A stretch of DNA of 64,000 bases from Lentimicrobiaceae bacterium. GTDB lineage: Bacteria > Bacteroidota > Bacteroidia > Bacteroidales > JAAYJT01. This document shows, in pieces, positions 28,460 to 54,558 of the stretch (positions within the stretch are counted from its first letter, which is position 1; the number at the start of each line of letters is the position of its first letter). The notes beneath the pieces were generated by a model. It saw only the letters and a list, made by a program, of their open reading frames with translations. It did not search any database and was not told the DNA's origin. The translations under genes and the position numbers were made by a program. The stretch lies in assembly GCA_037446395.1 (NCBI GenBank), contig JBBIIP010000002.1, positions 53,074-117,073 of the forward strand, in the 5' to 3' direction.

Positions 28460-29817
28460 TTCAGTCCTCCCATGATATGGTGATTGTTAAATTTAACGAA
28501 ATTCGTTGTATAAGTATTGTTATTCAAATAACTGATGTAGCTATCCTGTTGCCTTACCAGGCTGTAATCGAACTGTAAAGTCATGCTTTTATTAATCAAA
28601 AGATATGCCGTGATTCCGGCTTTGGAGTTAATTGTGCCGCTAGTGTTAAAAAGGATTGAACCGTCATCATCAAACGTATTTTTCAGGTAGCCCCAGGCAT
28701 AATTTCCTTGCAGCCAAATGCCGGGCAGAATTTTGCCTCCTGCTCCAAGCTTATAGTGCCAATTGAATATATGATCTTCGGCCACAGCAGAAAAACGTGC
28801 AAATGTATAAAGATTAAGATTAGCATATGGATAAAGACTCATACCCAAGGCTCCCTGCCACTGATTGTTGTTGTTAAGGTAAGAATGTCCTGCTGCCCCG
28901 CTCAGGCTGAAATAGGGCATTTCTCTAACCAATTTAAGCAATGCAGTGTAATTATATATTGAATATTGAGGCCGGCTCGTGGTGTATTTGTTACTGAGAG
29001 GCACGTATTTCACCACATAAGGCCGGTCATTTATGTTAATCAGGTTAAATGAAGGAATAATATACAACCCGTTGGATATCCTGAAAGGCAGGCTGATGAA
29101 AAGTTGGTGCTGAAAGAGTGTATAATTATTGTCGAGTGTATCTGTTCCTGAAAAAATGATTCGCTGATGCTTGGCAAGTTGCAGGTGAGTGTAGCCCAAA
29201 TACCACCTGTATTGGGTGGCAGGTGAAAGAATAAAGCCTAAGTGCGCATACCGCAGCCTACCGCTTCCACTTATTTCGCCATAGATGTTTGCTGTTTGGT
29301 CCAGATCAATTTGTGCAATCTTTTTTGCAATGCCCGACATTGCACCGCCAGCAAAAACCGAAACTCCTTTAATGTAATTTTTATCGTGGCTGGATTGAAA
29401 GAAATGAGAATATCGTTTTGTGAGCGAGGCGGCTTCAAGGTCAAGCCCGCTCCATTGATAACCTTGGAGCAGATAGTTTGCAGCGTTTTTATCCCTCGAA
29501 TTAAACAAAAGTGCTTTTTCGAAGTGCCCGGCCGCCTTGCGATAGTGTTGTTGCATATAGTATGCAATACCCACCCGCATGCGCATATAAAAATAGTCGT
29601 GCCCCTGGGCAATTGCCTGGTTGCCAATTTTTATGAGGCTTTGCCACTGCCCTTGCAAATAAAGGGAATAGGTGATGCTGTCGGCTGTTTGAAATACCTT
29701 ACCTTTTTGAGCATACATTTCATGTGGCAAAATAATAAGCGTAAGAATCAGCAGATGTGATAACAGGCTGATATGCTTTCGTGAAAGAAACCATTTCAAG
29801 TTTTGTATTACTTTCAC
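28447..29817 (-). CDS. Signal-peptide protein with N-terminal TPRs and a beta-rich C-terminal half (outer-membrane barrel-like)
   Basis: N-terminal TPR-like helices (aa ~45-130). The following ~300 aa have alternating aromatic/polar beta-strand patterns rich in Y/G/N/S, ending ..GGLKWKL. Confidence 0.55.
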   Translation of the reverse strand: MKVIQNLKWFLSRKHISLLSHLLILTLIILPHEMYAQKGKVFQTADSITYSLYLQGQWQSLIKIGNQAIAQGHDYFYMRMRVGIAYYMQQHYRKAAGHFEKALLFNSRDKNAANYLLQGYQWSGLDLEAASLTKRYSHFFQSSHDKNYIKGVSVFAGGAMSGIAKKIAQIDLDQTANIYGEISGSGRLRYAHLGFILSPATQYRWYLGYTHLQLAKHQRIIFSGTDTLDNNYTLFQHQLFISLPFRISNGLYIIPSFNLININDRPYVVKYVPLSNKYTTSRPQYSIYNYTALLKLVREMPYFSLSGAAGHSYLNNNNQWQGALGMSLYPYANLNLYTFARFSAVAEDHIFNWHYKLGAGGKILPGIWLQGNYAWGYLKNTFDDDGSILFNTSGTINSKAGITAYLLINKSMTLQFDYSLVRQQDSYISYLNNNTYTTNFVKFNNHHIMGGLKWKL

Positions 29818-32063
29818 GACTCTACCTCCTTCGCATCTATCATAACCGTATTACTTTTCACCTTAAACAGCGAAATTCTACCTTTGCTCACACACATTTC
29901 AAAATCAACTGCCAAACTGAGCTTATTCAGCACAAACTGCCTGGTTTCTGCTTTCATCACGATACTGCTATCAACCAGGTTATCATCATTTTTAAGGTAA
30001 TACAGGGTATAATCTGCTGTTATGAAAGAATAAAATGGTGCAATAAAATCGTGCCAGAATAAGGCAAATCCTTTTTTAAAAGCACTTAGCGGATAAATAT
30101 CTTTAACTTCAAGTTTATTGTAATAGCCAAGTACAATTTTATAAGCTGCCAGGTAAAAGAAATAGAGAAAAGAATCTTTGTCGCCTTCAAAATGGTTGAA
30201 ATAAAACAAGTCTCCATCGCAGTGAAAATAAGCTTTTGATAGGGTTTCCCGGCATTCAAGATAGGTGTTATTATACATGTCTGACTTAACATCCAAGTGC
30301 TCTTTTTTCATTGGCTTACCATTTCTGTTCGTTTCAAAGCTCAGCGTTTGGCCCGGAATAAAACCGAATGTCTTCGATAAAGCTTCGTTTTTTACAGTAC
30401 CCGACACAAGTTGCCCTTTGAGTGGCCTGTCGTAGGTTTCTAATTGGTAATGATCTTTTTCTTTGACGAGATAATAGGCAAATGGATAATCAATGGTTTT
30501 TGAGCCAATGAACGGATCGGACTGGATCTGGAAGTGTAGGTGAGGCACAACCGATCTCCCCGAATTGCCGCACTGGGCAATGACCTCTCCCTTTTTAACA
30601 TAAGCGCCTTTGTAGGTTTTAATACTGCCCATCTTCAGATGGCATAGCTTGGTGTAGATTTTGTCGGAGTGTTTGATGACGATGGTATTTCCCCAATTGT
30701 TTCCCAAATTCATGTCGCCAATGGCATTATCCGGAATTCCTTGCAGAATTTCCTGAACCACTCCGTCGGCCGGTGCCAGTACAGGTTTTCCAAAACAGTA
30801 AAAATCCTTTTGTTCGAGGCCCATCCTGTCAAAATTCTTGCCTTCCTCATCGCAAATCTCGAAATCCCAGGCATGGCGCCAATCCTCTTTGTGGGTGTGT
30901 TCACCATTGTGGCCTTGAGAAACCACCCATTCGCCCATAAACGGAGGTGTGAGTTGGGTCGAAGTATTTACATCGAACCGTGATTTGTAGTTATTCTGGG
31001 AGTATAAATTTCGCTCAGGGGAAAATTGCTGAACCACCACGAGTTCAGGGCTATTGAAATGCCTTTCTCTGAACTTTAACACATACAGAAACAGCACCAC
31101 AATGATATTGAATGCAAGCGAATAAATGGGTAGGCCCAGCAGGTTAAATAACAAGCTGGTAGAAATAATAATGAAAGAGATGATGGGGGTGAGAAGAATA
31201 ACCCACAGAAATGAGTATTTTGACGGTACTATAAAAAAACCACCGATTGCAATGGCACTCAAAATATAGTTGAAGCCAATATAGCTGTAATTGAGTTCGG
31301 CCAGGTTGGCGCCGATCAATACATAATAGAAATAGGCAGCAAAAAAACCGAGAATCGAAAGCAGGAATGCAATTCTGGAATATATTAACAAGCCGATGGC
31401 CACAATCGCACCGGCCAGCAGGTGATATTGAAAGAAAATGGCAGCCAGCGATTTGAAATAGGTCGAAATGGAAGGATGCATAGGTAAATCGTTGACCCAG
31501 TAATAAAGCTTCACCATTTTTATCCCGCCATGTTCATAGATTTCGTTAAGTAGAAACAAGCCACGCTCACTCATGGCAAGAGCTGAAAACTCGCGCGATG
31601 CCAGGCTCACTATCCAGATGCCCAGCAAAAAAGCCCAACTCAGAGAGGGCAGTCCATACTTGCCAAAAAAACCATCTAGCCAAATGGTGAGCATAAATGT
31701 CAGAATAGCCGAAAACACCAGCACAAAAAAGAACTCGATGCCAGGCTGATAAAAAATGCCCATACCCAATCCAACCAGCAAACTGTTAAACCCATAAAAC
31801 CCCTGGGTTACCGTGTGTTTCCTAAATCCTATCGCGACTGCTGCCAAATTGGAAACAAATACCGCAATTAAACCACTCAGCCCTGCGATCCAGTCGAAAA
31901 AAGTAACAAGCAATAAGATGAGCGCAAAGGATTTTTGTTTCGAAAAAAACACCTGACTGTAGCTCAGAAGCACTCCTTCGCTGAAAAGGATGATATTTTT
32001 CTCGAGTTTTTGAATCATTGTGCCCGTTTCATGGTTGGAGATTATAAAGCAATCAAAGCTCAA
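29814..32063 (-). CDS. Urea-transporter-like polytopic membrane domain fused to an M23 metallopeptidase domain plus a C-terminal domain of unknown function
   Basis: About 340 aa of densely packed TM helices starting with the UT-like SQVFFSKQ motif. Then an M23 domain (HAWDF, GNSGRSVVPHLHFQIQ), then about 200 aa with no recognisable motif. Alternative start at M16 (32018). Confidence 0.65.
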   Translation of the reverse strand: MSFDCFIISNHETGTMIQKLEKNIILFSEGVLLSYSQVFFSKQKSFALILLLVTFFDWIAGLSGLIAVFVSNLAAVAIGFRKHTVTQGFYGFNSLLVGLGMGIFYQPGIEFFFVLVFSAILTFMLTIWLDGFFGKYGLPSLSWAFLLGIWIVSLASREFSALAMSERGLFLLNEIYEHGGIKMVKLYYWVNDLPMHPSISTYFKSLAAIFFQYHLLAGAIVAIGLLIYSRIAFLLSILGFFAAYFYYVLIGANLAELNYSYIGFNYILSAIAIGGFFIVPSKYSFLWVILLTPIISFIIISTSLLFNLLGLPIYSLAFNIIVVLFLYVLKFRERHFNSPELVVVQQFSPERNLYSQNNYKSRFDVNTSTQLTPPFMGEWVVSQGHNGEHTHKEDWRHAWDFEICDEEGKNFDRMGLEQKDFYCFGKPVLAPADGVVQEILQGIPDNAIGDMNLGNNWGNTIVIKHSDKIYTKLCHLKMGSIKTYKGAYVKKGEVIAQCGNSGRSVVPHLHFQIQSDPFIGSKTIDYPFAYYLVKEKDHYQLETYDRPLKGQLVSGTVKNEALSKTFGFIPGQTLSFETNRNGKPMKKEHLDVKSDMYNNTYLECRETLSKAYFHCDGDLFYFNHFEGDKDSFLYFFYLAAYKIVLGYYNKLEVKDIYPLSAFKKGFALFWHDFIAPFYSFITADYTLYYLKNDDNLVDSSIVMKAETRQFVLNKLSLAVDFEMCVSKGRISLFKVKSNTVMIDAKEVES

Positions 32064-33411
32064 ACTTTTTTAGGTGCACTGGCATTTTTTCCAACGCATT
32101 GAAAACCGCCATTGTTTCATTTTCGCGGATTATATGCACCTGGCTATCTGCATCAATTAGAACCACCTTTGGCCTGAGATTGATAAATTGCATCCACTGC
32201 GACATGTTGTAGGCCCCAACATGATGTATCACAAAATGATCGCCTTTGTTGAGCAGCGGAAGCACGGCGTTTTCGCGAATCACATCAATATTCATACACA
32301 AAGGGCCATACATAGTGGTTTCTTCGGTATATTGAGAGAACTCCTGGGCAGGAGTTATTTTATGATCATACCAGAACGAAGTAAATAACAAATTGATGCC
32401 AATATCAACAATGGTAGTTCTTTTGCCTGTTGACGAACGCTTATTTGAGATCACGGTTCCCAGCAAAAAGCCTGCTTCGTCAATTAAGGCGCGGCCCGAC
32501 TCAAGGATTAAGAGGGGCAGGTTTTCGGGAGGAAATTCAACAGCCAGCAGGGCAGAAGAAATTTCTTCGGCATAATCTTCGAACGATGGGGTTGTATCTG
32601 CACTCGGAAGATATGCACCTTTGAGTGTATTACGCGAGGGAAAACCTCCGCCAAGGTCTATGTATTTGATATTGTGGTTATAACGCCGCTTCAATCCCAA
32701 CGCCAGGTCAGAAAGTTTGGCTGCTGCAATGGCATAGGCCTTGGGGCTTAAAATATAGGTTCCAATATGGCAATGAAGCCCCACCAGGTCCATTTTGGCT
32801 GCTACCATGATTTTGTTGAGTGCATCCCAGGCCTGCCCGTTTTCATAATTAAACCCGAAACGGTCCCAGATGGGATAAATACCCGTATCCATGTTTACCC
32901 TGATGGCAACACGCGGGCGCTTTTCAAGCTTTTCGGCGAGCTCGGTAATGGTATAAAGCTCGTCGAGGTGGTCAATATGAATCAAGGAGTCGTTTGTGAT
33001 TGCCTTCGTTAGATCAGCCGTGGTTTTATCTGGCCCGTTAAAAATTATTTTGTTTCCCGGTACACCATTTTTAATGGCTTTATCGTATTCAAACCCTGAA
33101 ACTACTTCCGCCCAAGAGCCTTCCTGGTGGTAGATATTGCAAACTGCATCGAGATAATTTGTTTTGTATGACCATGCAAACTGAACTTTTGGATAACGCA
33201 TGGTAAATGCTTTTTTTGCTTTTTTGTAGGTGCTGCGAATACTTTTTTCGGAGATTACAAACAGTGGCGACCCATAGTCGGCAACCAGCTGGTTTACCGG
33301 CACCCCATCAATATGGGTTTTTGGGGTGCGATCAATCCGTCCGCCAAATTTGTTTGGCATCTCGGTTTCGAGGCGCTTGATGATAGGGCGTTCATATTTC
33401 AGTTTTTCCAT
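32053..33411 (-). CDS. Fold-type III PLP-dependent decarboxylase (Orn/DAP/Arg decarboxylase family)
   Basis: PLP-lysine context FAWSYKTN, HCHIGT, DLGGGFP, LILESGRALI, GPLCMNIDV and VGAYN match the DAP/ornithine decarboxylase family layout. Substrate unknown. Confidence 0.8.
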   Translation of the reverse strand: MEKLKYERPIIKRLETEMPNKFGGRIDRTPKTHIDGVPVNQLVADYGSPLFVISEKSIRSTYKKAKKAFTMRYPKVQFAWSYKTNYLDAVCNIYHQEGSWAEVVSGFEYDKAIKNGVPGNKIIFNGPDKTTADLTKAITNDSLIHIDHLDELYTITELAEKLEKRPRVAIRVNMDTGIYPIWDRFGFNYENGQAWDALNKIMVAAKMDLVGLHCHIGTYILSPKAYAIAAAKLSDLALGLKRRYNHNIKYIDLGGGFPSRNTLKGAYLPSADTTPSFEDYAEEISSALLAVEFPPENLPLLILESGRALIDEAGFLLGTVISNKRSSTGKRTTIVDIGINLLFTSFWYDHKITPAQEFSQYTEETTMYGPLCMNIDVIRENAVLPLLNKGDHFVIHHVGAYNMSQWMQFINLRPKVVLIDADSQVHIIRENETMAVFNALEKMPVHLKKFEL

Positions 33412-33468
33412 AATACTTGTGTCTGTATTTTCGATTTAAATGTTGATGATTGGATGATTCATAATTTG

Positions 33469-34524
33469 CTAAAGTTCTGCGTTTGTAGAGATTTGTTGAA
33501 ACTCCTCAATGTCAACAATCATATCCCAGGCATAACGTACGAACATTTTTCCAACCTTGTATCCAGTGAACGAAGAAACCGGCTCCCCCAAAGCAAGCTG
33601 CACCAATGCTTCCGGAATATTCTGCCCCACACCAACAGCCAAGTATATCCAGGCGGGCATGCGCGGATTAATCTCCAGAAGATAAAAGTCGTTGTTTTTG
33701 TCTTTCATCAATTCCAGTTCAAAACCCCCGCGCCATTTTGTCTGGCTGATAAAACGGTGGGTTAATTCAAGAATTCGCGGATCGGCAATAGAAATACCGC
33801 CCCAGGCTTTTCCCTTGTCGGTGATGTACTGTTTTCGCATGGGTACTGCCGCAATCGTGTTTCCAAAGCCGTCGCCCAAACCGGTAACGTTGAACTCGGC
33901 TCCATGTATAAACTCCTGCACTATGACCGGAGCCCCCCATTTTGCAGTGATTTTGTTGAAAAAATTTTTTGCCTGATCAACATTATATGCAACATAAGCA
34001 TCGTAGTATTTCCCTTTGACCAGCACAGGATATTGAAAATCCTTAGTTATGCTGTGCAGTGAAACCAGCTCGTGATACACTTTGCCTTTTGGGACCTTGA
34101 TGTTGTATTTTTTTCCAAACTCATCGAGGTTTACTTTGTGTCGTTCCTCGAATTGCTCCATGGTGGGCAAAAACATATGAATGCCGAGCTTCTTAAGTCG
34201 TTGCTCAAGGCGGATGAAAGGATACAATTCTGAATCGAAATTAGGAATAATTACATCCAGTTTTTCACGAGAGTGTATGTATTCCATCCGTTCAATAACA
34301 GCTTCGGTTCCTGCTGAAGGGTAGGGCACCTGGTAAGTTTTATCCACCAGGTTATGCATAAAAATTCCCGGCTCAAGAGATTCGTATGCCAATCCAATGA
34401 TGCGGCAATCAAATGATGTGGCCTCCTTTAGTCCGCGGATTACTGCAACCCCAGGGCCTGGACTGTCAATTGCATTAAGGCCTGAAACTGCAATGGTAAG
34501 TTGTTTTTTTTCAGTCATTTTCAA
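33469..34524 (-). CDS. ATP-grasp domain ligase
   Basis: PVLVKGKYYDA, VIVQEFIHGAEFNV and LLEINPRMPAW are ATP-grasp (carbamoyl-phosphate-synthase-like) motifs. Substrate unknown. Confidence 0.75.
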   Translation of the reverse strand: MKMTEKKQLTIAVSGLNAIDSPGPGVAVIRGLKEATSFDCRIIGLAYESLEPGIFMHNLVDKTYQVPYPSAGTEAVIERMEYIHSREKLDVIIPNFDSELYPFIRLEQRLKKLGIHMFLPTMEQFEERHKVNLDEFGKKYNIKVPKGKVYHELVSLHSITKDFQYPVLVKGKYYDAYVAYNVDQAKNFFNKITAKWGAPVIVQEFIHGAEFNVTGLGDGFGNTIAAVPMRKQYITDKGKAWGGISIADPRILELTHRFISQTKWRGGFELELMKDKNNDFYLLEINPRMPAWIYLAVGVGQNIPEALVQLALGEPVSSFTGYKVGKMFVRYAWDMIVDIEEFQQISTNAEL

Positions 34525-34788: not shown

Positions 34789-35580
34789 CTAATAAATCAA
34801 GAGTTTTTCGGCCTTGGATTGATAATTTCGGGCCCGAAGAAAATAAAGATAAATCCCGGCCGCGTATTCAGAAGCAGGGATCTGTAAGTGGTTTGTGTCA
34901 TGCCCGACTTGAATTGTTTTCAATATTCTTCCTTCCAGATCGGTGATGACCAATTCTGCAGATGGAATTCCATTCGGCAATTCATAGCGTATGGTCGTAA
35001 ACTGCGATGCAGGATTGGGAAATGACCCTCTAAGTCCACCCGGTAGGCCTTCAGGCTCATTGGTTTGTGTGATTAATTGGCCGGGAAGATTGAAAACCTT
35101 GGTTTGAATCGAATAGGGATTGCTCGAATAATCATAGCTATATGCAAACATTTTGGTGCCAACTCCGGCAATGTTATACACATAAACATACTGGCATCCT
35201 GGTATTGACAAAAGCTCAGTACCGTTTTCCTTCACTACTTTGGCCGTGTAGGTATAATATTGGCCGGTGGAATTGTAATTATAATATATATAGATTAGGC
35301 ATAATGTATTGTCGGTTGTGAAAAGGTTTTCCGAAACATATTTGATGTCATACAAATAATTATTCACCGGAACATTCAAACTCAGCGTTTTCCATAGGGC
35401 GTGGTTTGTATTATAGATTCGACATTGGCTCGTGGATATGTCCATTAAAAAATACTTGTAACCTGAATTGGCAAGCCGGGTGTATGTTGCAGAATGACTA
35501 TATGTGGCTTCCAGAGAAATCTGGCTGAAAGCAATCCCAAAAAATAACGACAAAATGATTGTAAAGGCAACTTTTTTCAT
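34789..35580 (-). CDS. T9SS C-terminal-sorting-domain secreted protein, function unknown
   Basis: Signal peptide. The C-terminal ~80 aa (FPNPASQFTTIRYELP...VITDLEGRIL...AGIYLYFL...) is a type A T9SS sorting domain. Confidence 0.75.
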   Translation of the reverse strand: MKKVAFTIILSLFFGIAFSQISLEATYSHSATYTRLANSGYKYFLMDISTSQCRIYNTNHALWKTLSLNVPVNNYLYDIKYVSENLFTTDNTLCLIYIYYNYNSTGQYYTYTAKVVKENGTELLSIPGCQYVYVYNIAGVGTKMFAYSYDYSSNPYSIQTKVFNLPGQLITQTNEPEGLPGGLRGSFPNPASQFTTIRYELPNGIPSAELVITDLEGRILKTIQVGHDTNHLQIPASEYAAGIYLYFLRARNYQSKAEKLLIY

Positions 35581-35633
35581 TGAAAAACATTTATTATTTA
35601 TACAAGGTGCTCTAAATTAATAAAATACAGAAC

Positions 35634-36449
35634 TTATTGTTTGATGATTTTTAGGACCTGTTTCTTGTTTCCTTGCTCTGCAATGAAAAAGTAAATACCT
35701 TTATCAACAATGTGGCCGCTCATGTCTTTGCCATCCCAAGTAAACTCATTTTCATCCGAGCGGGCTTTTGGGTTAAAAATGAAGTGCCTCAGGTTTCGTC
35801 CCAGATTATCGTAAATTTTCACATTGACTGGCAATTTGCTTTCGCTTCTTAGTGCAATATGGGCGTATTCCGAAAATGGATTTGGGAAGCAATCAAATAT
35901 TATTGTGTTTGCTAATTCATCCTGTATTCCAACTGTTGATTTCGGAATCCATTGCAATGACATGTTTGTAAAATTAGTTTGATTTGCAGGTGTAAGGGTT
36001 TGCGCTTGCGGGCCTTTGCTGAAAGGTATATAATGCAGTTTACCGGTAGCATTTGCCGAAGTAAATTCAATATAAATCCGGTAATTGCCATCGGGAACCA
36101 GGTTGCCATTGACATCTTTTCCATCCCAGGAAACCGAGTGCGTGATATGGTTTGGCAAAGTTGGCCCGGTAATGGCATCAATAACATTAAAAGTATTGCC
36201 GGTAGCATTCCGGAAGTTAGTAAGGTATTGCCTATAAACGGGATGTTGGGCCAGAAGTTTTCGTGTTTTAACCCATTGAGCATTTTCGTTGCTTATCCAT
36301 ATAGCGAATATATGCAAAGGCGAATAAGGAGCTGAGTAATTAATCGTAGTGACTGAAAAAGAAAGAGTGCCGGGAGTTTGGCAATACAACACAGGTGCCG
36401 CTAATAAGCAGAGTACCAAAAGCCATGCTTTCAATATTTTATGTTTCAT
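35634..36449 (-). CDS. T9SS C-terminal-sorting-domain secreted protein with FlgD-Ig-like and possibly DUF2271-like modules
   Basis: Signal peptide. SWDGKDVNGNLVPDGNYRIYI is a FlgD-Ig-like motif. The N-terminal PYSPLHIFAIWISNENAQWVKT resembles DUF2271, but that is a weak call from memory. C-terminal CFPNPFSEY...VKIYDNLGR...GIYFF is a T9SS sorting domain. Start moved to ATG 36449 because a -7 box overlaps the ORF-track start. Confidence 0.7.
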   Translation of the reverse strand: MKHKILKAWLLVLCLLAAPVLYCQTPGTLSFSVTTINYSAPYSPLHIFAIWISNENAQWVKTRKLLAQHPVYRQYLTNFRNATGNTFNVIDAITGPTLPNHITHSVSWDGKDVNGNLVPDGNYRIYIEFTSANATGKLHYIPFSKGPQAQTLTPANQTNFTNMSLQWIPKSTVGIQDELANTIIFDCFPNPFSEYAHIALRSESKLPVNVKIYDNLGRNLRHFIFNPKARSDENEFTWDGKDMSGHIVDKGIYFFIAEQGNKKQVLKIIKQ

Positions 36450-36458
36450 AATAATACG

Positions 36459-36466
36459 CAAAAATA
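36459..36466 (-). promoter_or_regulatory. Candidate -7 promoter box (TATTTTTG)
   Basis: The reverse complement of caaaaata is TATTTTTG, about 10 nt upstream of ATG 36449. This implies a near-leaderless transcript. Confidence 0.25.
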
Positions 36467-36535
36467 CAATATTGAGGATTAAAAATGGCGTGAAATTCAG
36501 TTGTTTAAGTGTTTTTTCATCGAAGGATTCATAGG

Positions 36536-37549
36536 TTAGCTTTTTCTAATTGCATCTTGTGGGCAAATATCCTCGCACTTGCTGCACTTTTGGCATCTCT
36601 TCTGGTCAATCACGGCTTTATAACGCTCAACCGCAACCGCTTCCGAAGGGCACAACGCAGCACAAACACCACAATTATTGCAGATATTTTGATTCAAAAC
36701 AGGTTCGGAATACTCCGTAGGCGCAATAAAATATATTGCCTCGTCGGGGCAGGCAGGATAACAATTTCCGCAACGAATACACTTCTTCAGGTCAATATAC
36801 GGTTTGGTATTTGTCGGATTTCCTTCCTTGGTGATTCCATTATCGGTGCACACCTGGAAGCACTTTCCACATTTTATACATTTGGTTTGATCAATGGCAA
36901 CCTTTGCCTTAATGATGGCATTGTATCTGCATTTATTAAAGCACTTTCCGCAACGTGTGCATTTGGACGTATCTATAACAGCCTTATTATTAACTTTTCT
37001 GATTGCAGCCGAAGGGCAAACCGAAGAACACTCAGATACACAACCCTGGCAACGCGAATTAATAACCGAATAATATTGAACCGTATACTTTATGGCGTTC
37101 CCCTGCAAGGCACAGGCCTCAATGCACTTACCACATCCAACGCAATTGCCCGATATACTATACTTAAGAGCGCTGGTAGGCAATACAATGGCGTTTGATT
37201 TGCACACCGGAAGGCATTTGCCACACAAGGTGCACTTTTCTGGGGTGATGAAAAAATCAATAGAAGTGATTTCGATGGCTTTTACCTTGCAAGCATTTTC
37301 GCAAATGCAACAACTGATGCATTTCTCTGGCAAAATTGAATACTTGCTCCGCTGGGGCAACACCACAGCGGAATAATAGCATACATCAAAACAAGCACCG
37401 CATCCGATGCATTTTTCATCAATCACTTCATAAGCGGCATAAAGCCCTTCATCGGTGCACGACTTTATTGCGGGTGCAACCATCAAAAGCGCGCCACCTT
37501 TGAGAAGCTTTCCAATAAATTCCCTGCGTTGATATTTGTTTGGTTCCAT
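36536..37549 (-). CDS. Tat-signal polyferredoxin with ten [4Fe-4S]-type cysteine motifs
   Basis: Twin-arginine leader QRREFIGKLLKGGALLMVAP. Ten motifs spaced about 30 aa apart: CIGCGACFDVC, CISCCICENAC, CTLCGKCLPVC, CVGCGKCIEAC, CQGCVSECSSVC, CTRCGKCFNKC, CIKCGKCFQVC, CIRCGNCYPAC, CNNCGVCAALC and CQKCSKCEDIC. Confidence 0.85.
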   Translation of the reverse strand: MEPNKYQRREFIGKLLKGGALLMVAPAIKSCTDEGLYAAYEVIDEKCIGCGACFDVCYYSAVVLPQRSKYSILPEKCISCCICENACKVKAIEITSIDFFITPEKCTLCGKCLPVCKSNAIVLPTSALKYSISGNCVGCGKCIEACALQGNAIKYTVQYYSVINSRCQGCVSECSSVCPSAAIRKVNNKAVIDTSKCTRCGKCFNKCRYNAIIKAKVAIDQTKCIKCGKCFQVCTDNGITKEGNPTNTKPYIDLKKCIRCGNCYPACPDEAIYFIAPTEYSEPVLNQNICNNCGVCAALCPSEAVAVERYKAVIDQKRCQKCSKCEDICPQDAIRKS

Positions 37550-37579
37550 GTTTCAGTTCAATCTTGTTTTAATGGCAGT

Positions 37580-38842
37580 TTATAAGCTAACCCTGAATTC
37601 GAACCTTCCCAGAAAAGCATCATCTTTCAGTAGGTTGCTTTTTATAAAACCTCCAATCGCGCTTGCCTGCATGTGTTTCCCAATTTTTTTTACAATGGCC
37701 AGGTCAAGTTCCTGCATTGGGTTTTGCCTGGTCTGTAATATATATTGCAGTTTCAGGTGGGTTCTGATTTCCGGAAGCCTGTATCGGATGGCTAACTGAA
37801 CGAAAGGCAAATCCATGGCGTCGAGACGAAGCACATTTCCGGCAAAAATATTGCTAAAAGAATTCAATGCTTTGGCGTTGGCATCAAGTGCGTAGATTCC
37901 ATAGTAGCGCAAATAAAAATGCGTTCTGCTTTTCGAGCCATTGAGCGACTTTTCGAGCCCTAGTGTAAATATTAAGGCTTGATTGTTTTGAGAAGCCTGG
38001 TATAAAATTTCGGGCTTAAAATAGATGTCTGCCGGTAATCGAAACTCAGAAAACAGCCCACCAATAAACACATTTTCCGGAACCCATGATCCAAACTCAT
38101 CATACAGGGCAATACCTGCTGTTTCGAGCGAAAATTTTCTTGAACCAGAAGTTTCCGTGCCAATTGCATTTGAGAAACCATCAGGCGAAAATTCATCCAG
38201 GTTTTCCGTTGATTGCTTTTTTGTCATCTTCGAAGGGGTGAATTTGAAAGTTACCCCGCTGAAATTTGTCTGACCGGGTTTGTTTCCTATCAAAGGCAAC
38301 TGGCGGCCTGGAATGATGTCGTAAAGATAGCTGACGGCACAAAAAATTCCATTGCGGGCAAAATCCTTGGTGACTGTTCCGCCAGAAAAATTCACTGCCC
38401 ATGCGCCTTTTGTGTGCTCATAATTAATGCCGATCATTCTTTCGTTGAACAGGTAGTCGTCGTCAAAACGTGCCGATTGCAGCCCGAGAGTAATTCTCCC
38501 AACGGGGCTTCGATATTGGTAAAACAATTCACGCAGGCCAAAATGCTGGTCGCTGAAGCTGGCATCTTTTTCCAGGTCGTAACGATACCAATACTTAAAT
38601 CCACCCTCGATATAGAACGTAGATTTTTCACCCGAACGATCTATGCCCAAATAGCCCATACCATTTATGATTGAATTATCTGTCAGATAACCAAGCCCTC
38701 CGGTGATTTCGGAACCAACGTAAAACTTGCTCTTACCGATGGGCTTCAAAAATGCGGCCAATTGGCTGGGACATTCCCATTGAGCCAACAACCCCAATGG
38801 GAGGGCGATCAAAAGCAGAATTATAAATAATCCTTTTCTCAT
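37580..38842 (-). CDS. Outer-membrane beta-barrel-like protein, function unknown
   Basis: Signal peptide (LLAQ). 420 aa rich in alternating aromatic/G/S/N beta-strand patterns, with a C-terminal ..GRFEFRVSL. No enzymatic motif. Confidence 0.6.
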   Translation of the reverse strand: MRKGLFIILLLIALPLGLLAQWECPSQLAAFLKPIGKSKFYVGSEITGGLGYLTDNSIINGMGYLGIDRSGEKSTFYIEGGFKYWYRYDLEKDASFSDQHFGLRELFYQYRSPVGRITLGLQSARFDDDYLFNERMIGINYEHTKGAWAVNFSGGTVTKDFARNGIFCAVSYLYDIIPGRQLPLIGNKPGQTNFSGVTFKFTPSKMTKKQSTENLDEFSPDGFSNAIGTETSGSRKFSLETAGIALYDEFGSWVPENVFIGGLFSEFRLPADIYFKPEILYQASQNNQALIFTLGLEKSLNGSKSRTHFYLRYYGIYALDANAKALNSFSNIFAGNVLRLDAMDLPFVQLAIRYRLPEIRTHLKLQYILQTRQNPMQELDLAIVKKIGKHMQASAIGGFIKSNLLKDDAFLGRFEFRVSL

Positions 38843-38849
38843 TTTGTGG

Positions 38850-40265
38850 TCAAGAAATAGTGATTGAATTCTTTTTACAACTGCCTATGCAATCGCCACA
38901 GAAAATACAATCATGAATATTTAAGTGGCTGCTTCCACTTTCATAAACGATAGCATGGGTTTTGCAAGCATCGCTGCAGCGCTTGCAATCGGCACAATTT
39001 TGGGTTTTTGTTATGTTTTTTGCGCCGGGCAAATGCGAGACACCGGCAAGCACTACCCCCACCGGGCAGAATCCCCTGCAAAAGGGGCGGTATATCATTA
39101 CAGACAGCAGCAGCAAAATGACGAGCAGCACGTATCCGGTCGTATTGGCCGAAAAAAGGTTGAAAGCCATTTTGAAAGGGTCATAATGAATGAAAATATT
39201 GGTTTGGGTGATTGTAAGCTGAGCAATCAGAATGACCAGGACCACAATACGTAAGTACCTGAGGAAAGCTTGAGCTTTGAGACTTTTTAGAATGTGCAGC
39301 TTGTCGGCCTGAAAAAGAAACTCCTGTAGCCCCCCCAAATGGCAAAGCCAGCTGCACCAGATTTTTCCAAAAAAATATGTCAGGGGAACCAAGGCCACAA
39401 ACCAAATCAGTGAAATCCAGGCCACCTGCTGACCAAGACCCGCCAGCACAAGGTTTTGAAAACTTAAAATCATGCAAGGACATCCACCCTTTATAAACCC
39501 CAGGTAGACAACAGTTGCCAATAAAAACAAACCCCGAAATTTTCTGAAAGATTCATTTTTTATGAAAAAACTGATCACGATCAAAACCGAGAAAAGTATA
39601 GCCAGCTCAATGAGAAATCGTTTGTCGGCCTGGCTCATTGTTCGTCCTGATTTTTCGGAAGCGGCTGCGGTATTTTCGCCGGTTTGAAACTCTGTGGCGG
39701 CAAATTCATCATCAATTGGCGCAAATTCATCGTTGGCAGAAATCAAGGCGGTATCGGAAATGGTTTCTTGCATTGCATCAGGTGCATCAACCGAACCCGT
39801 TTGTTCAGTTACAACACCTGAGAGCGGCTCAAAGTCTTCGTGCATTGGCAAGAATTCAGAATTTACAGCCGTATCATGTAAAACTCCGATAACAGGGCTA
39901 CTTTCCGTCTGGCAGCTCTCGGGCTGTTGGCCAGCTTTTTGGGTTTGAAAAGCGATGACTGCCACCATTGATATCGCAACCAAAGTGGTTATAATCCAAT
40001 AAATGCGCCTTGCTTTATATTTGCCGTGGAAATAAAAAGCCAACAAAAACAGTAACACTGCAAGCAAAATCAACCTGAACAAATCGCTGCCAGTGGAGAA
40101 ACCTGCCGAAACAGGTTCGCTACAGCCTGAAAAAGAACATCCACTCGCGCAATCTTTGGCTTGCAGGTTTTTAGCAAAACCTTTTAGGTTGAGGAAAACA
40201 GAGAAAACTACAAACCATGCGAAGCGACCAAACCAGTTTGTCGCCAGTTTTAATTGATTACTCAC
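38850..40265 (-). CDS. NapH/MauN/RdhC-like polytopic 4Fe-4S-binding membrane protein with an N-terminal extension
   Basis: Family-typical membrane-proximal Cys motifs (GGCPC, IWCSWLCHLG, RPFCRGFCPVG). Two C-terminal ferredoxin motifs (CADCKRCSDAC, CIFCGDCIGSC). An extra N-terminal part of about 210 aa has a Cys-rich loop and an acidic linker. Confidence 0.75.
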   Translation of the reverse strand: MSNQLKLATNWFGRFAWFVVFSVFLNLKGFAKNLQAKDCASGCSFSGCSEPVSAGFSTGSDLFRLILLAVLLFLLAFYFHGKYKARRIYWIITTLVAISMVAVIAFQTQKAGQQPESCQTESSPVIGVLHDTAVNSEFLPMHEDFEPLSGVVTEQTGSVDAPDAMQETISDTALISANDEFAPIDDEFAATEFQTGENTAAASEKSGRTMSQADKRFLIELAILFSVLIVISFFIKNESFRKFRGLFLLATVVYLGFIKGGCPCMILSFQNLVLAGLGQQVAWISLIWFVALVPLTYFFGKIWCSWLCHLGGLQEFLFQADKLHILKSLKAQAFLRYLRIVVLVILIAQLTITQTNIFIHYDPFKMAFNLFSANTTGYVLLVILLLLSVMIYRPFCRGFCPVGVVLAGVSHLPGAKNITKTQNCADCKRCSDACKTHAIVYESGSSHLNIHDCIFCGDCIGSCKKNSITIS

Positions 40266-51834: not shown

Positions 51835-53238
51835 ATGATGCATTATGAATATGAAACACCAGGTAAAATGAAATCATTCAACCCCAAGCATCTTTTGCTT
51901 TTACTGGGCGGTTTAGCTGCCTTATGGATATTGGCAAGTGCATTTTTGTCCAGTAAAAATCCGCATGAACAGGTTGTCTATAAGTACGACGATTTTAAGA
52001 CGCCCGAGTATTGCGGCACTGCCTGTCATAACGATATCTACAGGCAATGGAGCCAGAGCATGATGTCGCAAGCCTATACTCACCATTGGGATGAGATAGA
52101 ATATTTCGACCTGGCAGTGCCGCATGCCCGAATCGAGAAAAAAGTTTCAGAAGTTGAAGCGGGTTGTAATGGTTGTCACACCCCTATGGCATTCCTCACC
52201 GGTGATGTGCCGCCACCAAAACCTGATAAAAACTCGAGAGCTAACGAGTCGGTGTCGTGCGAAGTTTGCCACCTAATTACAGGTTTTAAGGGCGATATTC
52301 CTCACAATTTCAACTACATCATGAAACCCGGAAAAACCAAATTTAGCGGCCGCAAAGGGGGGGTGCAGTCGCCCAACCACGAAATTATCCTGAGCGATCT
52401 GCACCGCAGCGGTGATTTTTGTGGTATTTGCCACAACGAGATGAGCCCCTATGGTATTTGGGTGAAATCAACACATCTCGAATGGAAAGAAGGCCCTTAT
52501 TCCAAAGAAGGCGTACAATGCCAGGATTGCCACATGCCTAAGGCAAAAGGCAAGGTTGCCATTATGGGCAATACCTACGAAGATGCACGGCAGCATCTGT
52601 TTCATGGCGCACACGACCCCGGCAAGGTGCGTGGAACTGTCGAACTACGCATTCATCCCGACGTCACACAAGCTGAACCTGGCGAGAGCGTGAAATTTAC
52701 TGTTGTACTTTTCAATCAAAAAACCGGGCACAAATTCCCGACAGGTTCGGTTGAAGACCGCATTTTATGGATGCACGTCGAAGCTATAGATGCCAACGGA
52801 AAGGTTTATCACTTGCCCGTTGACCGAAAAGGGTTTAATGGAGAAGATTATACCATTTCCTCCAACGTGCTGGCATACAGGGACATGGGGGTTCCGCTGG
52901 GACTCAGGGATTTTAAAGGAGTTCAACGCGATGGCATTCCATTGGGCAACCGCATTTTCCGCATGCCCTATTTCGATCCGGATGGCAACATGACCATGCA
53001 ACAATGGCACACTGCTTCCTTAGGAGTTGATTACCGCCTGGGCCCCCGCCAGGCTGTTTCTGAAACTTGCACATTTACCATCCCATTTGACGTAGCCCCT
53101 GGAAAAATGACTGTGAAAGCAACCCTTAATTACCAGCTTTTGGTGAAACCGGTGGCAGATTTTTTAAAAGTTCCAGCAGAAGAATCGAATATTATCGTTG
53201 TGAATGATCACAAGACGACCATTGAAATATTGCCATAA
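51835..53238 (+). CDS. Membrane-anchored multihaem c-type cytochrome (five haem motifs) with C-terminal beta-rich domain
   Basis: N-terminal TM anchor. One CX3CH motif (CGTACH) and four CXXCH motifs (CNGCH, CEVCH, CGICH, CQDCH). The C-terminal ~200 aa have no haem motif. Confidence 0.8.
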   Translation: MMHYEYETPGKMKSFNPKHLLLLLGGLAALWILASAFLSSKNPHEQVVYKYDDFKTPEYCGTACHNDIYRQWSQSMMSQAYTHHWDEIEYFDLAVPHARIEKKVSEVEAGCNGCHTPMAFLTGDVPPPKPDKNSRANESVSCEVCHLITGFKGDIPHNFNYIMKPGKTKFSGRKGGVQSPNHEIILSDLHRSGDFCGICHNEMSPYGIWVKSTHLEWKEGPYSKEGVQCQDCHMPKAKGKVAIMGNTYEDARQHLFHGAHDPGKVRGTVELRIHPDVTQAEPGESVKFTVVLFNQKTGHKFPTGSVEDRILWMHVEAIDANGKVYHLPVDRKGFNGEDYTISSNVLAYRDMGVPLGLRDFKGVQRDGIPLGNRIFRMPYFDPDGNMTMQQWHTASLGVDYRLGPRQAVSETCTFTIPFDVAPGKMTVKATLNYQLLVKPVADFLKVPAEESNIIVVNDHKTTIEILP

Positions 53239-53276
53239 TAATTTAGAAACCAATCAGATAATTCATAAAAACCGCT

Positions 53277-54461
53277 ATGTATAAAATACTTACCATTGGA
53301 ACACTCACTTTGCTTTTTGCTCTCTCTATCAAAGTGCAAGCCATCCCGGCATTTGCCAGAAAATACCAACTCAGCTGCCAAACCTGTCACAACCCTGCGC
53401 CAAGGCTGAAGGCATTTGGAGAAGAGTTTGCCGGCAATGGATTCAAATTGGCAGATCAAACTGCGCCGCGCTATTTTATTCCAACAGGCGACCCAACCCT
53501 GAGCCTGATTCGCGATTTGCCGTTTGCACTTCGGATGGATGGTTTCATGAAAGTAGATGATGATACCGATCAGAAGTTTGATTTCAGTGCCCCCTATCTG
53601 GTTAAGATTATGAGCGGTGGCGAACTTGCCAACAATATCTCCTACTATTTCTATTTTTTCTTTGATGAGCGCGGCCATGTTGCCGGAATCGAAGACGCTT
53701 TTCTTATGTTCAACAACGTATTCGGAGCAAATCTAGACATCAACATCGGGCAGTTTCAGGTGAGCGATCCCTTATTTAAACGAGAATTGCGCCTTACGTT
53801 GAGCGATTATGAAGTTTACAAGACAACTCCGGGAATATCGTCGGCCAATCTTGAATACGACAAAGGCATCATGATTTCTTATGGTTTGGCCACGGGAACA
53901 GATATCGTATTGCAGGTGGTTAACGGAAACGGCATTGGCGGGGTTGACGATAAACTCTTCTACGACCGAGATAAATATAAAAACATTGCTGCAAGAATTA
54001 CTCAGGATGTTGGTGAGCATTTCAGAATAGGGCTTTTTGGCTACTTCGGAAAAGAATTTATGAAAAACAACTCTCCCCTCAACAAAATATCCTATTGGGG
54101 CCCTGACCTGACTATTTCGATGAGCGAAAAGCTGATCTTCAATGCGCAATACTTGTTTCGCAACGACAGCGGGCTTTTTGAATATATATCAGATGCAAGT
54201 GGCCGCAAGAATGTAAAGACCCAGGGAGGGTTTGCCGAGATTATCTATCTGCCAAAAGGCGACGAAAGCAAATGGTATTGCGTTGGTTTGGTAAATTACG
54301 TTAAAAGCGATTTTAGCTACCTCAACCGGCAGTCGGCCTCGGTTCATCTTGGTTATCTCCTCAGGCGCAATATCAGGGCGGTTGGCGAATATACCTTTTT
54401 CGAAAACACAGCCGGCAAGCAAGGAAACCGGTTCTCGATCGGTTTCAGTACCATGTTCTAA
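53277..54461 (+). CDS. Cyc2-like fused monohaem cytochrome-porin (outer-membrane)
   Basis: A signal peptide is followed immediately by IPAFARKYQLSCQTCH (single CXXCH). About 350 aa of beta-strand pattern then end in ..FSIGFSTMF, with the terminal aromatic typical of OMPs. Confidence 0.6.
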   Translation: MYKILTIGTLTLLFALSIKVQAIPAFARKYQLSCQTCHNPAPRLKAFGEEFAGNGFKLADQTAPRYFIPTGDPTLSLIRDLPFALRMDGFMKVDDDTDQKFDFSAPYLVKIMSGGELANNISYYFYFFFDERGHVAGIEDAFLMFNNVFGANLDINIGQFQVSDPLFKRELRLTLSDYEVYKTTPGISSANLEYDKGIMISYGLATGTDIVLQVVNGNGIGGVDDKLFYDRDKYKNIAARITQDVGEHFRIGLFGYFGKEFMKNNSPLNKISYWGPDLTISMSEKLIFNAQYLFRNDSGLFEYISDASGRKNVKTQGGFAEIIYLPKGDESKWYCVGLVNYVKSDFSYLNRQSASVHLGYLLRRNIRAVGEYTFFENTAGKQGNRFSIGFSTMF

Positions 54462-54558
54462 AACTGGAAACAAGCCAGCATCATGCAAAAATTTAATAAG
54501 TAAGAAAGATAAAAAGAGCTACGGATCAATAGGTTAATAATTCAATGCCAAAGAACAG

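What the first reader, a model, noticed from the sequence alone, without database searches (positions are those of the whole stretch)
51835..54461. Cyc2-like fused cytochrome-porin preceded by a membrane-anchored five-haem cytochrome in a fermentative Bacteroidota background
Seen: the 394-aa ORF has a signal peptide, then IPAFARKYQLSCQTCH (a single CXXCH within about 15 residues of the cleavage site). About 350 aa of beta-strand pattern follow, ending in F. It lies 38 nt downstream of a 467-aa protein with an N-terminal TM anchor and five haem motifs.

Established: Cyc2 of Acidithiobacillus and neutrophilic Fe-oxidisers is a fused monohaem cytochrome-porin that acts as an outer-membrane iron oxidase. 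Porin-cytochrome modules mediate extracellular electron transfer.

Inference: this pair could exchange electrons with extracellular iron. That would be unexpected next to propionate and butyrate fermentation genes, and it sits about 11 kb from the Fe-S module.
Basis: partly seen in the sequence, partly recalled or inferred. Interest (0 to 1): 0.75.

Follow-up and report, generated by a model that had tools for sequence, protein, structure and literature searches.

The report
Cyc2-type haem-porin with pentahaem partner
The two genes are real and form a widely conserved cassette in Bacteroidota and Ignavibacteriota, an outer-membrane Cyc2-family haem-porin plus a secreted five-haem cytochrome, which probably passes electrons across the outer membrane, though its substrate and direction are untested.

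Summary
ORF2 (53277-54461, 394 aa) meets every published sequence criterion for the Cyc2 fused cytochrome-porin family. It has a signal peptide, a predicted mature N-terminus IPAFARKY, one CXXCH, a PXL motif, a length above 365 aa, and a porin-like barrel of about 16 strands that ends in F. It aligns over its full length with a proteobacterial family that includes a Gallionellaceae protein (hhalign probability 100%, E 7e-59).

ORF1 (51835/51868-53238) is a secreted pentahaem cytochrome with four CXXCH motifs and one CX3CH. It belongs to the PHC family (T. tepidum c552, Geobacter ExtKL/MccSep) but lacks MccSep's catalytic Cys and Sec. Its "TM anchor" is more likely a signal peptide.

The pair is adjacent in 78 of 80 related genomes (43 labelled Bacteroidota, 30 labelled Ignavibacteriota); the other two loci end before the upstream gene. 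No other neighbour is conserved. Relatives at 40% identity or less stand alone.

Cyc2 homologues in these phyla were already reported in surveys, so their presence is not new. I found no description of the fixed pairing with a PHC cytochrome. The function (iron oxidation, electron disposal or other) is inferred, not shown. Novelty: new variant of a known kind. Interest is moderate.

The parts
51835..53238 (+). ORF1: secreted pentahaem c-type cytochrome of the PHC family (c552/ExtKL-like). It is 467 aa from the ATG at 51835. The likelier start is the ATG at 51868 (456 aa).
   Evidence: ORF listing. Alternative start from a gene caller. Pfam Cytochrome_C554 2.2e-7 and NCBIfam ExtKL 8e-8, far below that model's cutoff. 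A profile of the family hits PDB 5ze8 (T. tepidum penta-haem c552) at 1.3e-7 in three collinear segments. 2479 homologue clusters found.
51868..51960 (+). ORF1 N-terminal hydrophobic segment (MKSFNPKHLLLLLGGLAALWILASA|F...). It is a probable Sec signal peptide; an uncleaved signal anchor is not excluded.
   Evidence: Sequence. Most homologues carry short cleavable signal peptides ending AQ, SQ or GQ.
52012..52029 (+). Haem-binding site 1, CGTACH (CX3CH).
   Evidence: The site is conserved in 121 of 121 homologues, and 6 of them have CXXCH there.
52165..52179 (+). Haem-binding site 2, CNGCH.
52258..52272 (+). Haem-binding site 3, CEVCH.
52420..52434 (+). Haem-binding site 4, CGICH.
52519..52533 (+). 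Haem-binding site 5, CQDCH.
52633..53235 (+). ORF1 C-terminal beta-sandwich (Ig-like) domain.
   Evidence: The AlphaFold2 model shows strands with pLDDT up to 95 in this half. Foldseek matches only Ig-like sandwich domains. MccSep has the same cap-plus-stem architecture (PMC13510729); 5ze8 aligns with this half only weakly (third segment).
53239..53276 (+). 38-nt intergenic spacer with no terminator-like hairpin. The two genes are probably co-transcribed.
   Evidence: Most related loci have a comparably short gap, typically 15-110 nt.
53277..54461 (+). ORF2: Cyc2-family fused monohaem cytochrome-porin, 394 aa.
53277..53342 (+). ORF2 signal peptide (residues 1-22, predicted cleavage VQA|IP).
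   Evidence: Sequence. The mature A. ferrooxidans Cyc2 starts LPSFARQ by Edman sequencing (PMC3084935), which parallels the predicted IPAFARK.
53340..53408 (+). Cyc2 signature AIPAFARKY-x3-CQTCH-x3-PRL (haem-binding cytochrome module).
   Evidence: The motif is defined in PMC8406198. It is invariant in alignment A1. Every relative with a complete motif (86) has the same 3-residue spacing before CXXCH.
53475..54458 (+). Outer-membrane beta-barrel (residues ~67-394; 16-18 strands; C-terminal F as beta-signal).
   Evidence: AlphaFold2 mean pLDDT 69.8, with most barrel blocks scoring about 70-90. The best Foldseek PDB matches are 16-strand porins: VhChiP 5mdo (E 7.6e-11, TM 0.55/0.63), PorB, OmpU/T and OmpC/F.

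Best explanation
This is an autonomous two-gene redox cassette.

ORF2 is exported to the outer membrane. It folds as a porin of about 16 strands whose N-terminal ~45 residues carry one covalently bound c-type haem, as in Cyc2. [quoted passage not shown]

The most likely mechanism is as follows. A small soluble redox species reaches the haem in the pore and exchanges one electron with it. By analogy with all characterised Cyc2 proteins, that species is most plausibly Fe2+/Fe3+. The pentahaem cytochrome acts as the dedicated periplasmic partner, accepting, storing or donating electrons and linking the pore haem to the rest of the cell's redox chains.

Shown here: the sequence features, the fold, homology to the Cyc2 and PHC families, and strict gene linkage.

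Inferred: haem loading, physical interaction of the two proteins, iron as substrate, and the direction of electron flow.

On direction, I rate inward flow (Fe(II) oxidation, for extra energy or detoxification) at about 45%. I rate outward flow (electron disposal to soluble Fe(III), humics or similar by fermenters and facultative anaerobes) at about 35%. These figures are conditional on the module being such a conduit.
For: ORF2:
- The Cyc2 signature, single CXXCH, PXL and length all match the published criteria.
- The predicted mature N-terminus parallels the experimentally determined LPSFARQ of A. ferrooxidans Cyc2.
- The C-terminal region is modelled as a barrel whose best structural matches are 16-strand porins.
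- BLASTP gives 7e-50 against a Gallionellaceae MAG homologue. Profile-profile comparison with that proteobacterial family gives probability 100%, E 7.4e-59, over 362 columns.

ORF1:
- Five conserved haem sites, with no other conserved Cys.
- Homology to the penta-haem c552 structure 5ze8 and a weak match to ExtKL.
- Secretion signals are present throughout the family.

Linkage:
- ORF1 lies directly upstream of ORF2 on the same strand in 78 of 80 species-level genomes. The other two loci have almost no DNA upstream of the ORF2 match (83 and 128 bases).
- Only these two genes are conserved in the neighbourhood.
- The pairing persists down to about 42% ORF2 identity.

Hosts and literature:
- Hosts include Melioribacter roseus, which makes c-type cytochromes and reduces Fe(III) (cited in PMC6137239).
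- All three biochemically tested Cyc2 proteins oxidise Fe(II) (PMC8406198 and PMC7029218).
Against: There is no functional data for any member of this subfamily.

No FeGenie HMM or functionally verified Cyc2 sequence could be compared directly. The bridge to Cyc2 rests on the published motif and on unnamed proteobacterial homologues.

No inner-membrane partner, oxidase or quinol dehydrogenase is conserved next to the cassette, so the connection to energy metabolism is unknown.

The PHC relatives that have been studied are either a low-potential cytochrome of unknown role (T. tepidum c552) or an enzyme (MccSep polysulfide reductase). ORF1 may therefore not be a mere electron carrier.

The N-terminal haem region of ORF2 and the haem domain of ORF1 are modelled with low confidence.

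The 64-kb window holds no cytochrome c maturation genes; the rest of the genome was not visible.
Confidence: 0.55

Rival explanations
1. ORF1 is a periplasmic multihaem enzyme, a terminal reductase or oxidase for a small sulfur, nitrogen or selenium compound, as MccSep/ExtKL is for polysulfide. ORF2 mainly serves as the substrate or product channel across the outer membrane, and its haem has an accessory role. Iron is not the substrate.
For: The PHC family includes a proven enzyme. ExtKL (MccSep) is a periplasmic pentahaem polysulfide/selenite reductase, and it is encoded next to the porin gene extI (PMC13510729; PMC11976967). T. tepidum c552 has been suggested to act in sulfur metabolism. ORF1 has weak local similarity to NrfA-type nitrite reductases around haem 5. 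The cassette has no conserved electron-transfer neighbours. ORF1 has more invariant His and Met residues than five bis-His haems would need.
Against: The residues that define MccSep catalysis are absent. These are a haem-ligating Cys and a Sec/Cys in the Ig-like domain. In 121 homologues the only conserved Cys are the ten in the haem-binding motifs. The NCBIfam ExtKL score is 31 bits against a cutoff of 250. The strict conservation of the Cyc2 haem module in ORF2 argues that the porin is itself redox-active. No CXXCK or other known open-site signature was seen.
Confidence: 0.17
2. The cassette is a classical Cyc2 iron oxidase system only, with inward electron flow and ORF1 replacing Cyc1 or rusticyanin as the periplasmic acceptor. 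It would allow facultative litho- or mixotrophic Fe(II) oxidation. This is the directional special case of the main explanation.
For: Every biochemically tested Cyc2 oxidises Fe(II). ORF2 is a full-length homologue of a family that includes a Gallionellaceae protein. FeGenie-based surveys assign iron-oxidation genes to Ignavibacteriales.
Against: The hosts are organotrophs, fermenters and known Fe(III) reducers. The characterised PHC relatives are low-potential or reductive, which makes them poor acceptors for electrons from a Cyc2 haem at about +200 mV. No oxidase or ACIII is linked to the cassette.
Confidence: 0.25
3. The pair has a non-respiratory role, such as redox or iron sensing, haem or iron acquisition, or protection against periplasmic oxidants. 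The haems would serve as sensor or sink rather than as a conduit.
For: The cassette sits in unrelated, variable contexts. He et al. 2017 noted that Cyc2 homologues in non-iron-oxidisers may have other roles.
Against: No regulator, transporter, TonB-dependent receptor or peroxidase gene is consistently linked. Six haems across two proteins, conserved across two phyla, fit electron transfer better.
Confidence: 0.06

Closest known systems
Cyc2 fused cytochrome-porin (A. ferrooxidans Cyc2, Leptospirillum Cyt572, Mariprofundus Cyc2PV-1)
   Same: Both have a signal peptide, a mature N-terminus of the form x-P-x-F-A-R-[Q/K]-[T/Y], one CXXCH, a PXL motif, a length of roughly 400 aa and a C-terminal porin of about 16 strands. 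ORF2 aligns over its full length with a proteobacterial family that includes a Gallionellaceae member.
   Different: ORF2 comes from organotrophic or fermentative Bacteroidota rather than from an iron oxidiser. It is always preceded by a PHC-type pentahaem cytochrome gene, not placed in a rus-type operon (cyc2-cyc1-cox-rus, from my own knowledge) or standing alone. More distant relatives checked here stand alone. Its cluster assignment (1, 2 or 3) and its activity are untested.
T. tepidum low-potential penta-haem cytochrome c552 (PDB 5ze8) and the PHC family proposed for cable bacteria and Geobacter (ExtKL, Gsu2801)
   Same: Both have five haem sites in an N-terminal domain followed by a C-terminal Ig-like beta-sandwich, and similar length (435 vs 456 aa). 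Profile homology is 1.3e-7 in three collinear segments. The family is described in PMC11976967.
   Different: The homology is distant, at about 34 bits. ORF1's first haem site is CX3CH. c552 has no assigned function, and its genomic neighbours could not be examined here.
MccSep (ExtKL) polysulfide reductase, with the ExtI porin in the Geobacter extHIJKL cluster
   Same: Both are periplasmic pentahaem proteins with a cap-plus-Ig-stem architecture, and both are encoded beside an outer-membrane porin gene.
   Different: ORF1 lacks the conserved haem-ligating Cys and the Sec/Cys. It scores 31 bits against a cutoff of 250 for NF040886. Its partner porin is Cyc2-type and carries its own haem; I know of no haem site in ExtI (own knowledge, not checked here).
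Porin-cytochrome conduits (MtrAB(C), MtoAB/PioAB, Geobacter Pcc)
   Same: Adjacent genes encode a periplasmic multihaem cytochrome and an outer-membrane barrel, with a presumed role in moving electrons across the outer membrane.
   Different: Those barrels have about 26 strands (per PMC8406198) and sheathe a decahaem cytochrome. Here the barrel has about 16-18 strands, too narrow to hold ORF1, and it carries its own single haem.

Membership tests
Cyc2 fused cytochrome-porin | Sec signal peptide, with the mature protein starting at the x-P-x-F-A-R motif. | tested here: met
   Predicted cleavage VQA|IPAFARKY. The mature A. ferrooxidans Cyc2 N-terminus is LPSFARQ by Edman sequencing (PMC3084935). 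Cleavage in ORF2 is predicted by eye, not by a dedicated program.
Cyc2 fused cytochrome-porin | A single CXXCH haem-binding motif near the N-terminus. | tested here: met
   C34-Q-T-C37-H38 is the only CXXCH. It is invariant in 26 of 26 aligned homologues.
Cyc2 fused cytochrome-porin | AXPXFAR[Q/K][T/Y] motif just upstream of CXXCH. The authors state that this motif is unique to Cyc2. | tested here: met
   A22-I-P-A-F-A-R-K-Y30. The definition is in PMC8406198. Caveat: the paper says '5 amino acids upstream', whereas here three residues separate Y30 from C34. Every relative with a complete motif (86) has this same spacing. I could not check the counting convention against a reference sequence.
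Cyc2 fused cytochrome-porin | PXL motif about 4 residues downstream of CXXCH. | tested here: met
   H38-N-P-A-P42-R-L44. P42 and L44 are invariant.
Cyc2 fused cytochrome-porin | Length of at least 365 aa. | tested here: met
   394 aa.
Cyc2 fused cytochrome-porin | C-terminal porin-like beta-barrel of about 16 strands. | tested here: met
   The AlphaFold2 barrel spans residues 67-393 with 17-18 DSSP strand elements. The top Foldseek matches are 16-strand porins, with E down to 7.6e-11 and TM 0.55-0.65. The exact strand count is unresolved (16-18).
Cyc2 fused cytochrome-porin | BLASTP at 1e-5 or better to a reference Cyc2, or a FeGenie Cyc2 HMM hit above its cutoff. | not testable with these tools
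   No reference Cyc2 sequence or FeGenie HMM was available. Indirect evidence: BLASTP 7e-50 to a Gallionellaceae MAG homologue, and hhalign probability 100% to that family. Pfam and NCBIfam have no model that hits ORF2.
Cyc2 fused cytochrome-porin | Haem-loaded outer-membrane protein with Fe(II) oxidase activity. | not testable with these tools
   This needs biochemistry.
PHC family (T. tepidum c552 / ExtKL / Gsu2801-type pentahaem cytochromes) | Five c-type haem sites in an N-terminal domain, a C-terminal Ig-like beta-sandwich, and sequence or structure homology to c552. | tested here: met
   Five conserved sites. Profile hit to 5ze8 at 1.3e-7 in three collinear segments. The C-terminal sandwich is modelled with high pLDDT and matches Ig-like folds. 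The haem domain model is poor, so the structural match to c552 itself was not obtained.
MccSep (ExtKL) multihaem seleno/cysteine polysulfide reductase | A conserved haem-2-ligating Cys and a conserved Sec/Cys in the Ig-like domain. All 637 family sequences have the Sec/Cys site. | tested here: not met
   In 121 ORF1 homologues the only conserved Cys are the ten in the haem-binding motifs. There is no in-frame UGA. The NCBIfam NF040886 score is 31.3 bits against a cutoff of 250. Defining features are from PMC13510729.
NapC/NirT (NrfH/CymA) quinol dehydrogenases | An N-terminal membrane helix plus a tetrahaem domain of about 200 aa that matches the family model over its length. | tested here: not met
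   Only a 48-residue local match to PF03264 (27.4 bits). TIGR02161 scores 10.9 bits against 310.6, and TIGR03153 scores 24.4 against 134.2. Some databases name homologues 'NapC/NirT family cytochrome c'; that name is not supported.
Porin-cytochrome complex (MtrAB / MtoAB / PioAB type) | A large barrel of at least 20 strands that encloses a multihaem cytochrome. | tested here: not met
   The barrel has 16-18 strands and resembles general porins. The comparison with the 26-strand MtrB is in PMC8406198.

The most novel reading that the evidence does not exclude
The cassette is a self-contained, minimal two-protein system that needs no dedicated inner-membrane partner. There are two possible forms.

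(a) It lets fermentative or facultative Bacteroidota and Ignavibacteriota dump periplasmic reducing equivalents onto soluble extracellular acceptors such as Fe(III) chelates, humics or flavins. Electrons would pass through a single-haem porin, making this a new and very small kind of outward electron conduit.

(b) It couples Fe(II) oxidation at the pore directly to a reductive reaction catalysed by the pentahaem protein in the periplasm.

Either way, a Cyc2-family protein would have a physiological role other than lithotrophic iron oxidation, together with a defined, genetically linked periplasmic partner.
Probability: 0.2. Interest if true: 0.75.

Novelty: new variant of a known kind. Interest (0 to 1): 0.5.

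Why it matters
Cyc2 is the main genetic marker used to infer microbial iron oxidation in metagenomes. Yet many carriers are not iron oxidisers, and the periplasmic partner of Cyc2 is poorly defined outside Acidithiobacillus.

This subfamily is very common. At least 441 species-level genomes encode a relative of ORF2, although that count was not checked for the partner gene and may include stand-alone relatives. Thousands of protein clusters were also found. In the 78 checked genomes where the upstream gene is visible, a specific pentahaem cytochrome always accompanies it.

If these genes are counted as 'iron oxidation' in surveys of sediments, aquifers and digesters, iron-cycling budgets may be misassigned. 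Conversely, the fixed pair offers a tractable system for asking what Cyc2 homologues do in organotrophs and which protein takes or gives the electron. Cultured hosts exist: Melioribacter roseus, Rosettibacter primus and Tangfeifania diversioriginum DSM 27063.

Tried and rejected
- Pfam, NCBIfam and PDB sequence searches with ORF2 found nothing. No curated model covers this family.
- A tblastn search of ORF2 against plasmids, hoping for annotated Ralstonia or Burkholderia Cyc2 homologues, found no match.
- I could not obtain a functionally verified Cyc2 sequence. The Keffer 2021 supplements held as text contain no sequences. Cluster look-ups of distant relatives gave only 'hypothetical protein' from MAGs. 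A peptide-string search of the literature yielded only the Edman N-terminus of A. ferrooxidans Cyc2.
- The AlphaFold2 model of ORF1 was poor (pLDDT 53.8) in the haem domain, as expected without cofactors. Its Foldseek matches concern only the Ig-like domain and say nothing about function.
- I rejected the idea that ORF1 is a MccSep-type polysulfide reductase because it has no conserved extra Cys or Sec.
- I rejected the NapC/NirT annotation.
- A search for conserved neighbours (oxidases, ACIII, Ccs/Ccm, regulators) around the cassette in 80 genomes found none.
- A sigma-70 promoter and terminator scan of the locus was uninformative, and Bacteroidota promoters are not covered by it.
- A search of the window for other CXXCH proteins or a CcsA/CcmF WWD motif found none.
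- Literature checks found no link to this cassette in Melioribacter multi-omics, or in a search on Rosettibacter and another on Prolixibacter corrosion.


Full report
**Observation**

Both reading frames are at the stated coordinates on the + strand and are 38 nt apart. ORF2 (53277-54461, 394 aa) begins MYKILTIGTLTLLFALSIKVQA|IPAFARKYQLSCQTCHNPAPRL. It has one CXXCH and ends in ...GFSTMF. ORF1 (51835-53238, 467 aa) has an N-terminal hydrophobic stretch and five haem-binding sites.

Two details need correcting. First, the first haem site is CGTACH, a CX3CH motif; the other four are CXXCH. The site is conserved, and 6 of 121 homologues have CXXCH there. Second, a gene caller working on the same contig starts ORF1 at M12 (51868, 456 aa). 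From there the N-terminus reads as a Sec signal peptide (MKSFNPK-HLLLLLGGLAALWIL-ASA|F). Most homologues have short, plainly cleavable signal peptides ending AQ, SQ or GQ. The closest relatives of the window protein have longer hydrophobic stretches. A signal anchor in this sub-clade therefore cannot be excluded, but it is not a family trait.

**ORF2 is a Cyc2-family protein by every criterion I could test**

Keffer et al. 2021 (PMC8406198) define the family by five features. These are a signal peptide, a single CXXCH, an upstream AXPXFAR[Q/K][T/Y] motif they call unique to Cyc2, a downstream PXL, a length of at least 365 aa, and a 16-strand porin.

- ORF2 has A22-IPAFARKY30, C34QTCH38 and P42RL44. 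These residues are invariant in 26 homologues.
- An exhaustive search of 1.84 billion representative proteins found 1548 related clusters. Every one of the 86 inspected relatives with a complete motif has the same spacing before CXXCH: motif, three residues, CXXCH. The PxL follows after three residues in 82 of them and four in 4.
- Edman sequencing of mature A. ferrooxidans Cyc2 gave LPSFARQ (PMC3084935). This parallels the predicted mature IPAFARK.
- The AlphaFold2 model (mean pLDDT 69.8, pTM 0.68) shows a barrel from residue 67 to 393 with 17-18 strand elements. Its best PDB matches are 16-strand general porins: VhChiP at E 7.6e-11, then PorB, OmpU/T and OmpC/F.
- The haem-bearing N-terminus is modelled poorly, as expected without the cofactor.

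I could not obtain FeGenie HMMs or a verified Cyc2 sequence. As a bridge I used a distant relative from a gammaproteobacterial MAG. Its family includes proteins from Gallionellaceae, Acidiferrobacterales, Burkholderiales and Nitrospinota MAGs. ORF2 matches the Gallionellaceae protein at 7e-50, with 35% identity over 280 residues. The two family profiles align over 362 columns with probability 100% and E 7.4e-59. That these proteobacterial proteins are the 'Cluster 1' Cyc2 of the literature is my inference.

**ORF1 is a PHC-type pentahaem cytochrome and not a MccSep enzyme**

Pfam gives only weak Cytochrome_C554 and NapC/NirT fragments. NCBIfam gives ExtKL at 31 bits against a cutoff of 250. 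A family profile hits one solved structure, the low-potential penta-haem cytochrome c552 of Thermochromatium tepidum (5ze8). The hit is at 1.3e-7, in three collinear segments covering both halves of the protein. There is also a marginal hit to the archaeal cytochrome nanowire 8e5g.

A 2025 study groups c552, Geobacter ExtKL and Gsu2801, and cable-bacteria cytochromes into a 'PHC' family (PMC11976967). A 2026 study shows that ExtKL (MccSep) is a periplasmic polysulfide reductase. It has a five-haem cap and an Ig-like stem, and its activity depends on a haem-ligating Cys and a Sec/Cys (PMC13510729).

ORF1 shares the architecture. Its C-terminal beta-sandwich is modelled with high confidence. However, across 121 homologues the only conserved Cys are the ten in the haem-binding motifs, so the MccSep catalytic apparatus is absent. 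Seven invariant His and three invariant Met lie outside the motifs. That is enough for six-coordinate haems, but it does not prove them.

**The pair is a fixed cassette**

A scan of one genome per species (GTDB) found at least 441 genomes encoding a relative of ORF2. That count was not checked for the partner gene. Among the best 80, 43 carry Bacteroidota labels: Bacteroidales, Prolixibacteraceae (including Tangfeifania diversioriginum DSM 27063), Mariniphaga, Sunxiuqinia, Lentimicrobiaceae and Rikenellaceae. Thirty carry Ignavibacteriota labels: Melioribacter roseus, Rosettibacter primus, Ignavibacteriales and Kapaibacterium. Seven carry other labels and are probably mis-binned contigs.

In 78 of the 80 loci an ORF1 homologue (61-88% identity) sits immediately upstream on the same strand. 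The gap is 15-110 nt in most loci and reaches 540 nt at most. In the two exceptions the ORF2 match begins within about 130 bases of the start of the locus, so the upstream gene could not be seen.

Clustering all ORFs in these loci shows that nothing else is conserved. Flanks differ from genome to genome. In the window the flanks are a divergent TolC/RND efflux operon and a DNA-alkylation repair gene.

The pairing persists in a relative at 42% ORF2 identity. It is absent from the relatives checked at about 42% and at 30-40% identity, which stand alone.

**Context**

The window is from a Bacteroidota genome, as shown by proteins with T9SS sorting domains. It carries fermentation-type genes: Na+-translocating decarboxylase, carboxyltransferase, a fused B12 mutase, an acetate/butyrate kinase family protein and DcuC. 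It contains no other CXXCH protein and no CcsA/CcmF signature. Whether the organism can mature c-type cytochromes therefore cannot be judged from these 64 kb. Melioribacter roseus, which carries the cassette (L007), does make c-type cytochromes (PMC5492636).

**Mechanism**

The best-supported reading is a two-protein redox module. The pore haem of ORF2 exchanges single electrons with a small soluble species that can enter a 16-strand pore. Keffer et al. argue the same for Cyc2 and Fe2+. ORF1 is its dedicated periplasmic partner.

Direction is open. Inward flow is favoured because every tested Cyc2 oxidises Fe(II). Outward flow is favoured by the hosts, which are organotrophs, fermenters and Fe(III) reducers, and by the low-potential or reductive character of the PHC relatives studied so far. 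The lack of any linked inner-membrane component fits either direction. It also leaves room for ORF1 being a terminal enzyme.

**Novelty**

Finding a Cyc2 homologue in these phyla is not new. He et al. 2019 list Cyc2 homologues in Ignavibacteriaceae and Bacteroidetes MAGs (PMC6344600). Casar et al. 2021 report iron-oxidation marker genes in Ignavibacteriales (PMC8478452). He et al. 2017 already note Cyc2 homologues in many non-iron-oxidisers.

I found no paper describing the obligatory pairing with a PHC-type pentahaem cytochrome. This negative result is limited to the open-access library that was searched. I therefore class the finding as a new variant of a known kind, of moderate interest.

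Noticed in passing
window 34789-40265 (- strand): An Fe-S cluster of genes. It comprises a 337-aa polyferredoxin with many 4Fe-4S motifs (36536-37549), a 420-aa protein with no Pfam hit (37580-38842) and a 471-aa Fer4_5 (NapH/NosR-like) protein (38850-40265). Next to it are two proteins with T9SS sorting tails (34789-35580 and 35634-36461); the second also has a DUF2271 domain. It is not conserved near the cytochrome cassette in other genomes.
   Followed up: partly
window 29814-34524 (- strand): A 749-aa fusion of a urea-transporter (UT) domain with a Peptidase_M23 domain. It is followed by an Orn/DAP/Arg decarboxylase and an ATP-grasp protein. This is an unusual domain combination.
   Followed up: no
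window 23926-27300 (- strand): A 1124-aa fusion of a B12-binding domain, a MeaB GTPase and a methylmalonyl-CoA mutase domain (IcmF-like architecture). An acetate/butyrate kinase family gene lies next to it at 22742-23821.
   Followed up: no
loci L012, L028, L029, L038, L059, L065 (genome contigs): The cassette appears on contigs of MAGs labelled Hyphomicrobiales, Glassbacteria, Gemmatimonadales, Chloroflexota and Alphaproteobacteria. Identity to the window (49-54%) is the same as for Bacteroidota and Ignavibacteriota loci, so these are most likely mis-binned contigs rather than transfers.
   Followed up: no
window 51835-53238 (ORF1) and its homologues: Public annotations name homologues 'NapC/NirT family cytochrome c' or 'nitrate/TMAO reductase-like tetraheme cytochrome c subunit'. 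The family models do not support these names.
   Followed up: yes
ORF1 family profile (A2) vs PDB 8e5g_A: [quoted passage not shown] This echoes the published suggestion that c552-type pentahaem cytochromes are related to nanowire subunits.
   Followed up: no
window 52765-54488 (- strand): Several antisense ORFs of 81-156 aa overlap ORF1 and ORF2. Equivalent antisense ORFs recur in related loci only as shadows of the conserved coding frames, so they are not genes.
   Followed up: yes
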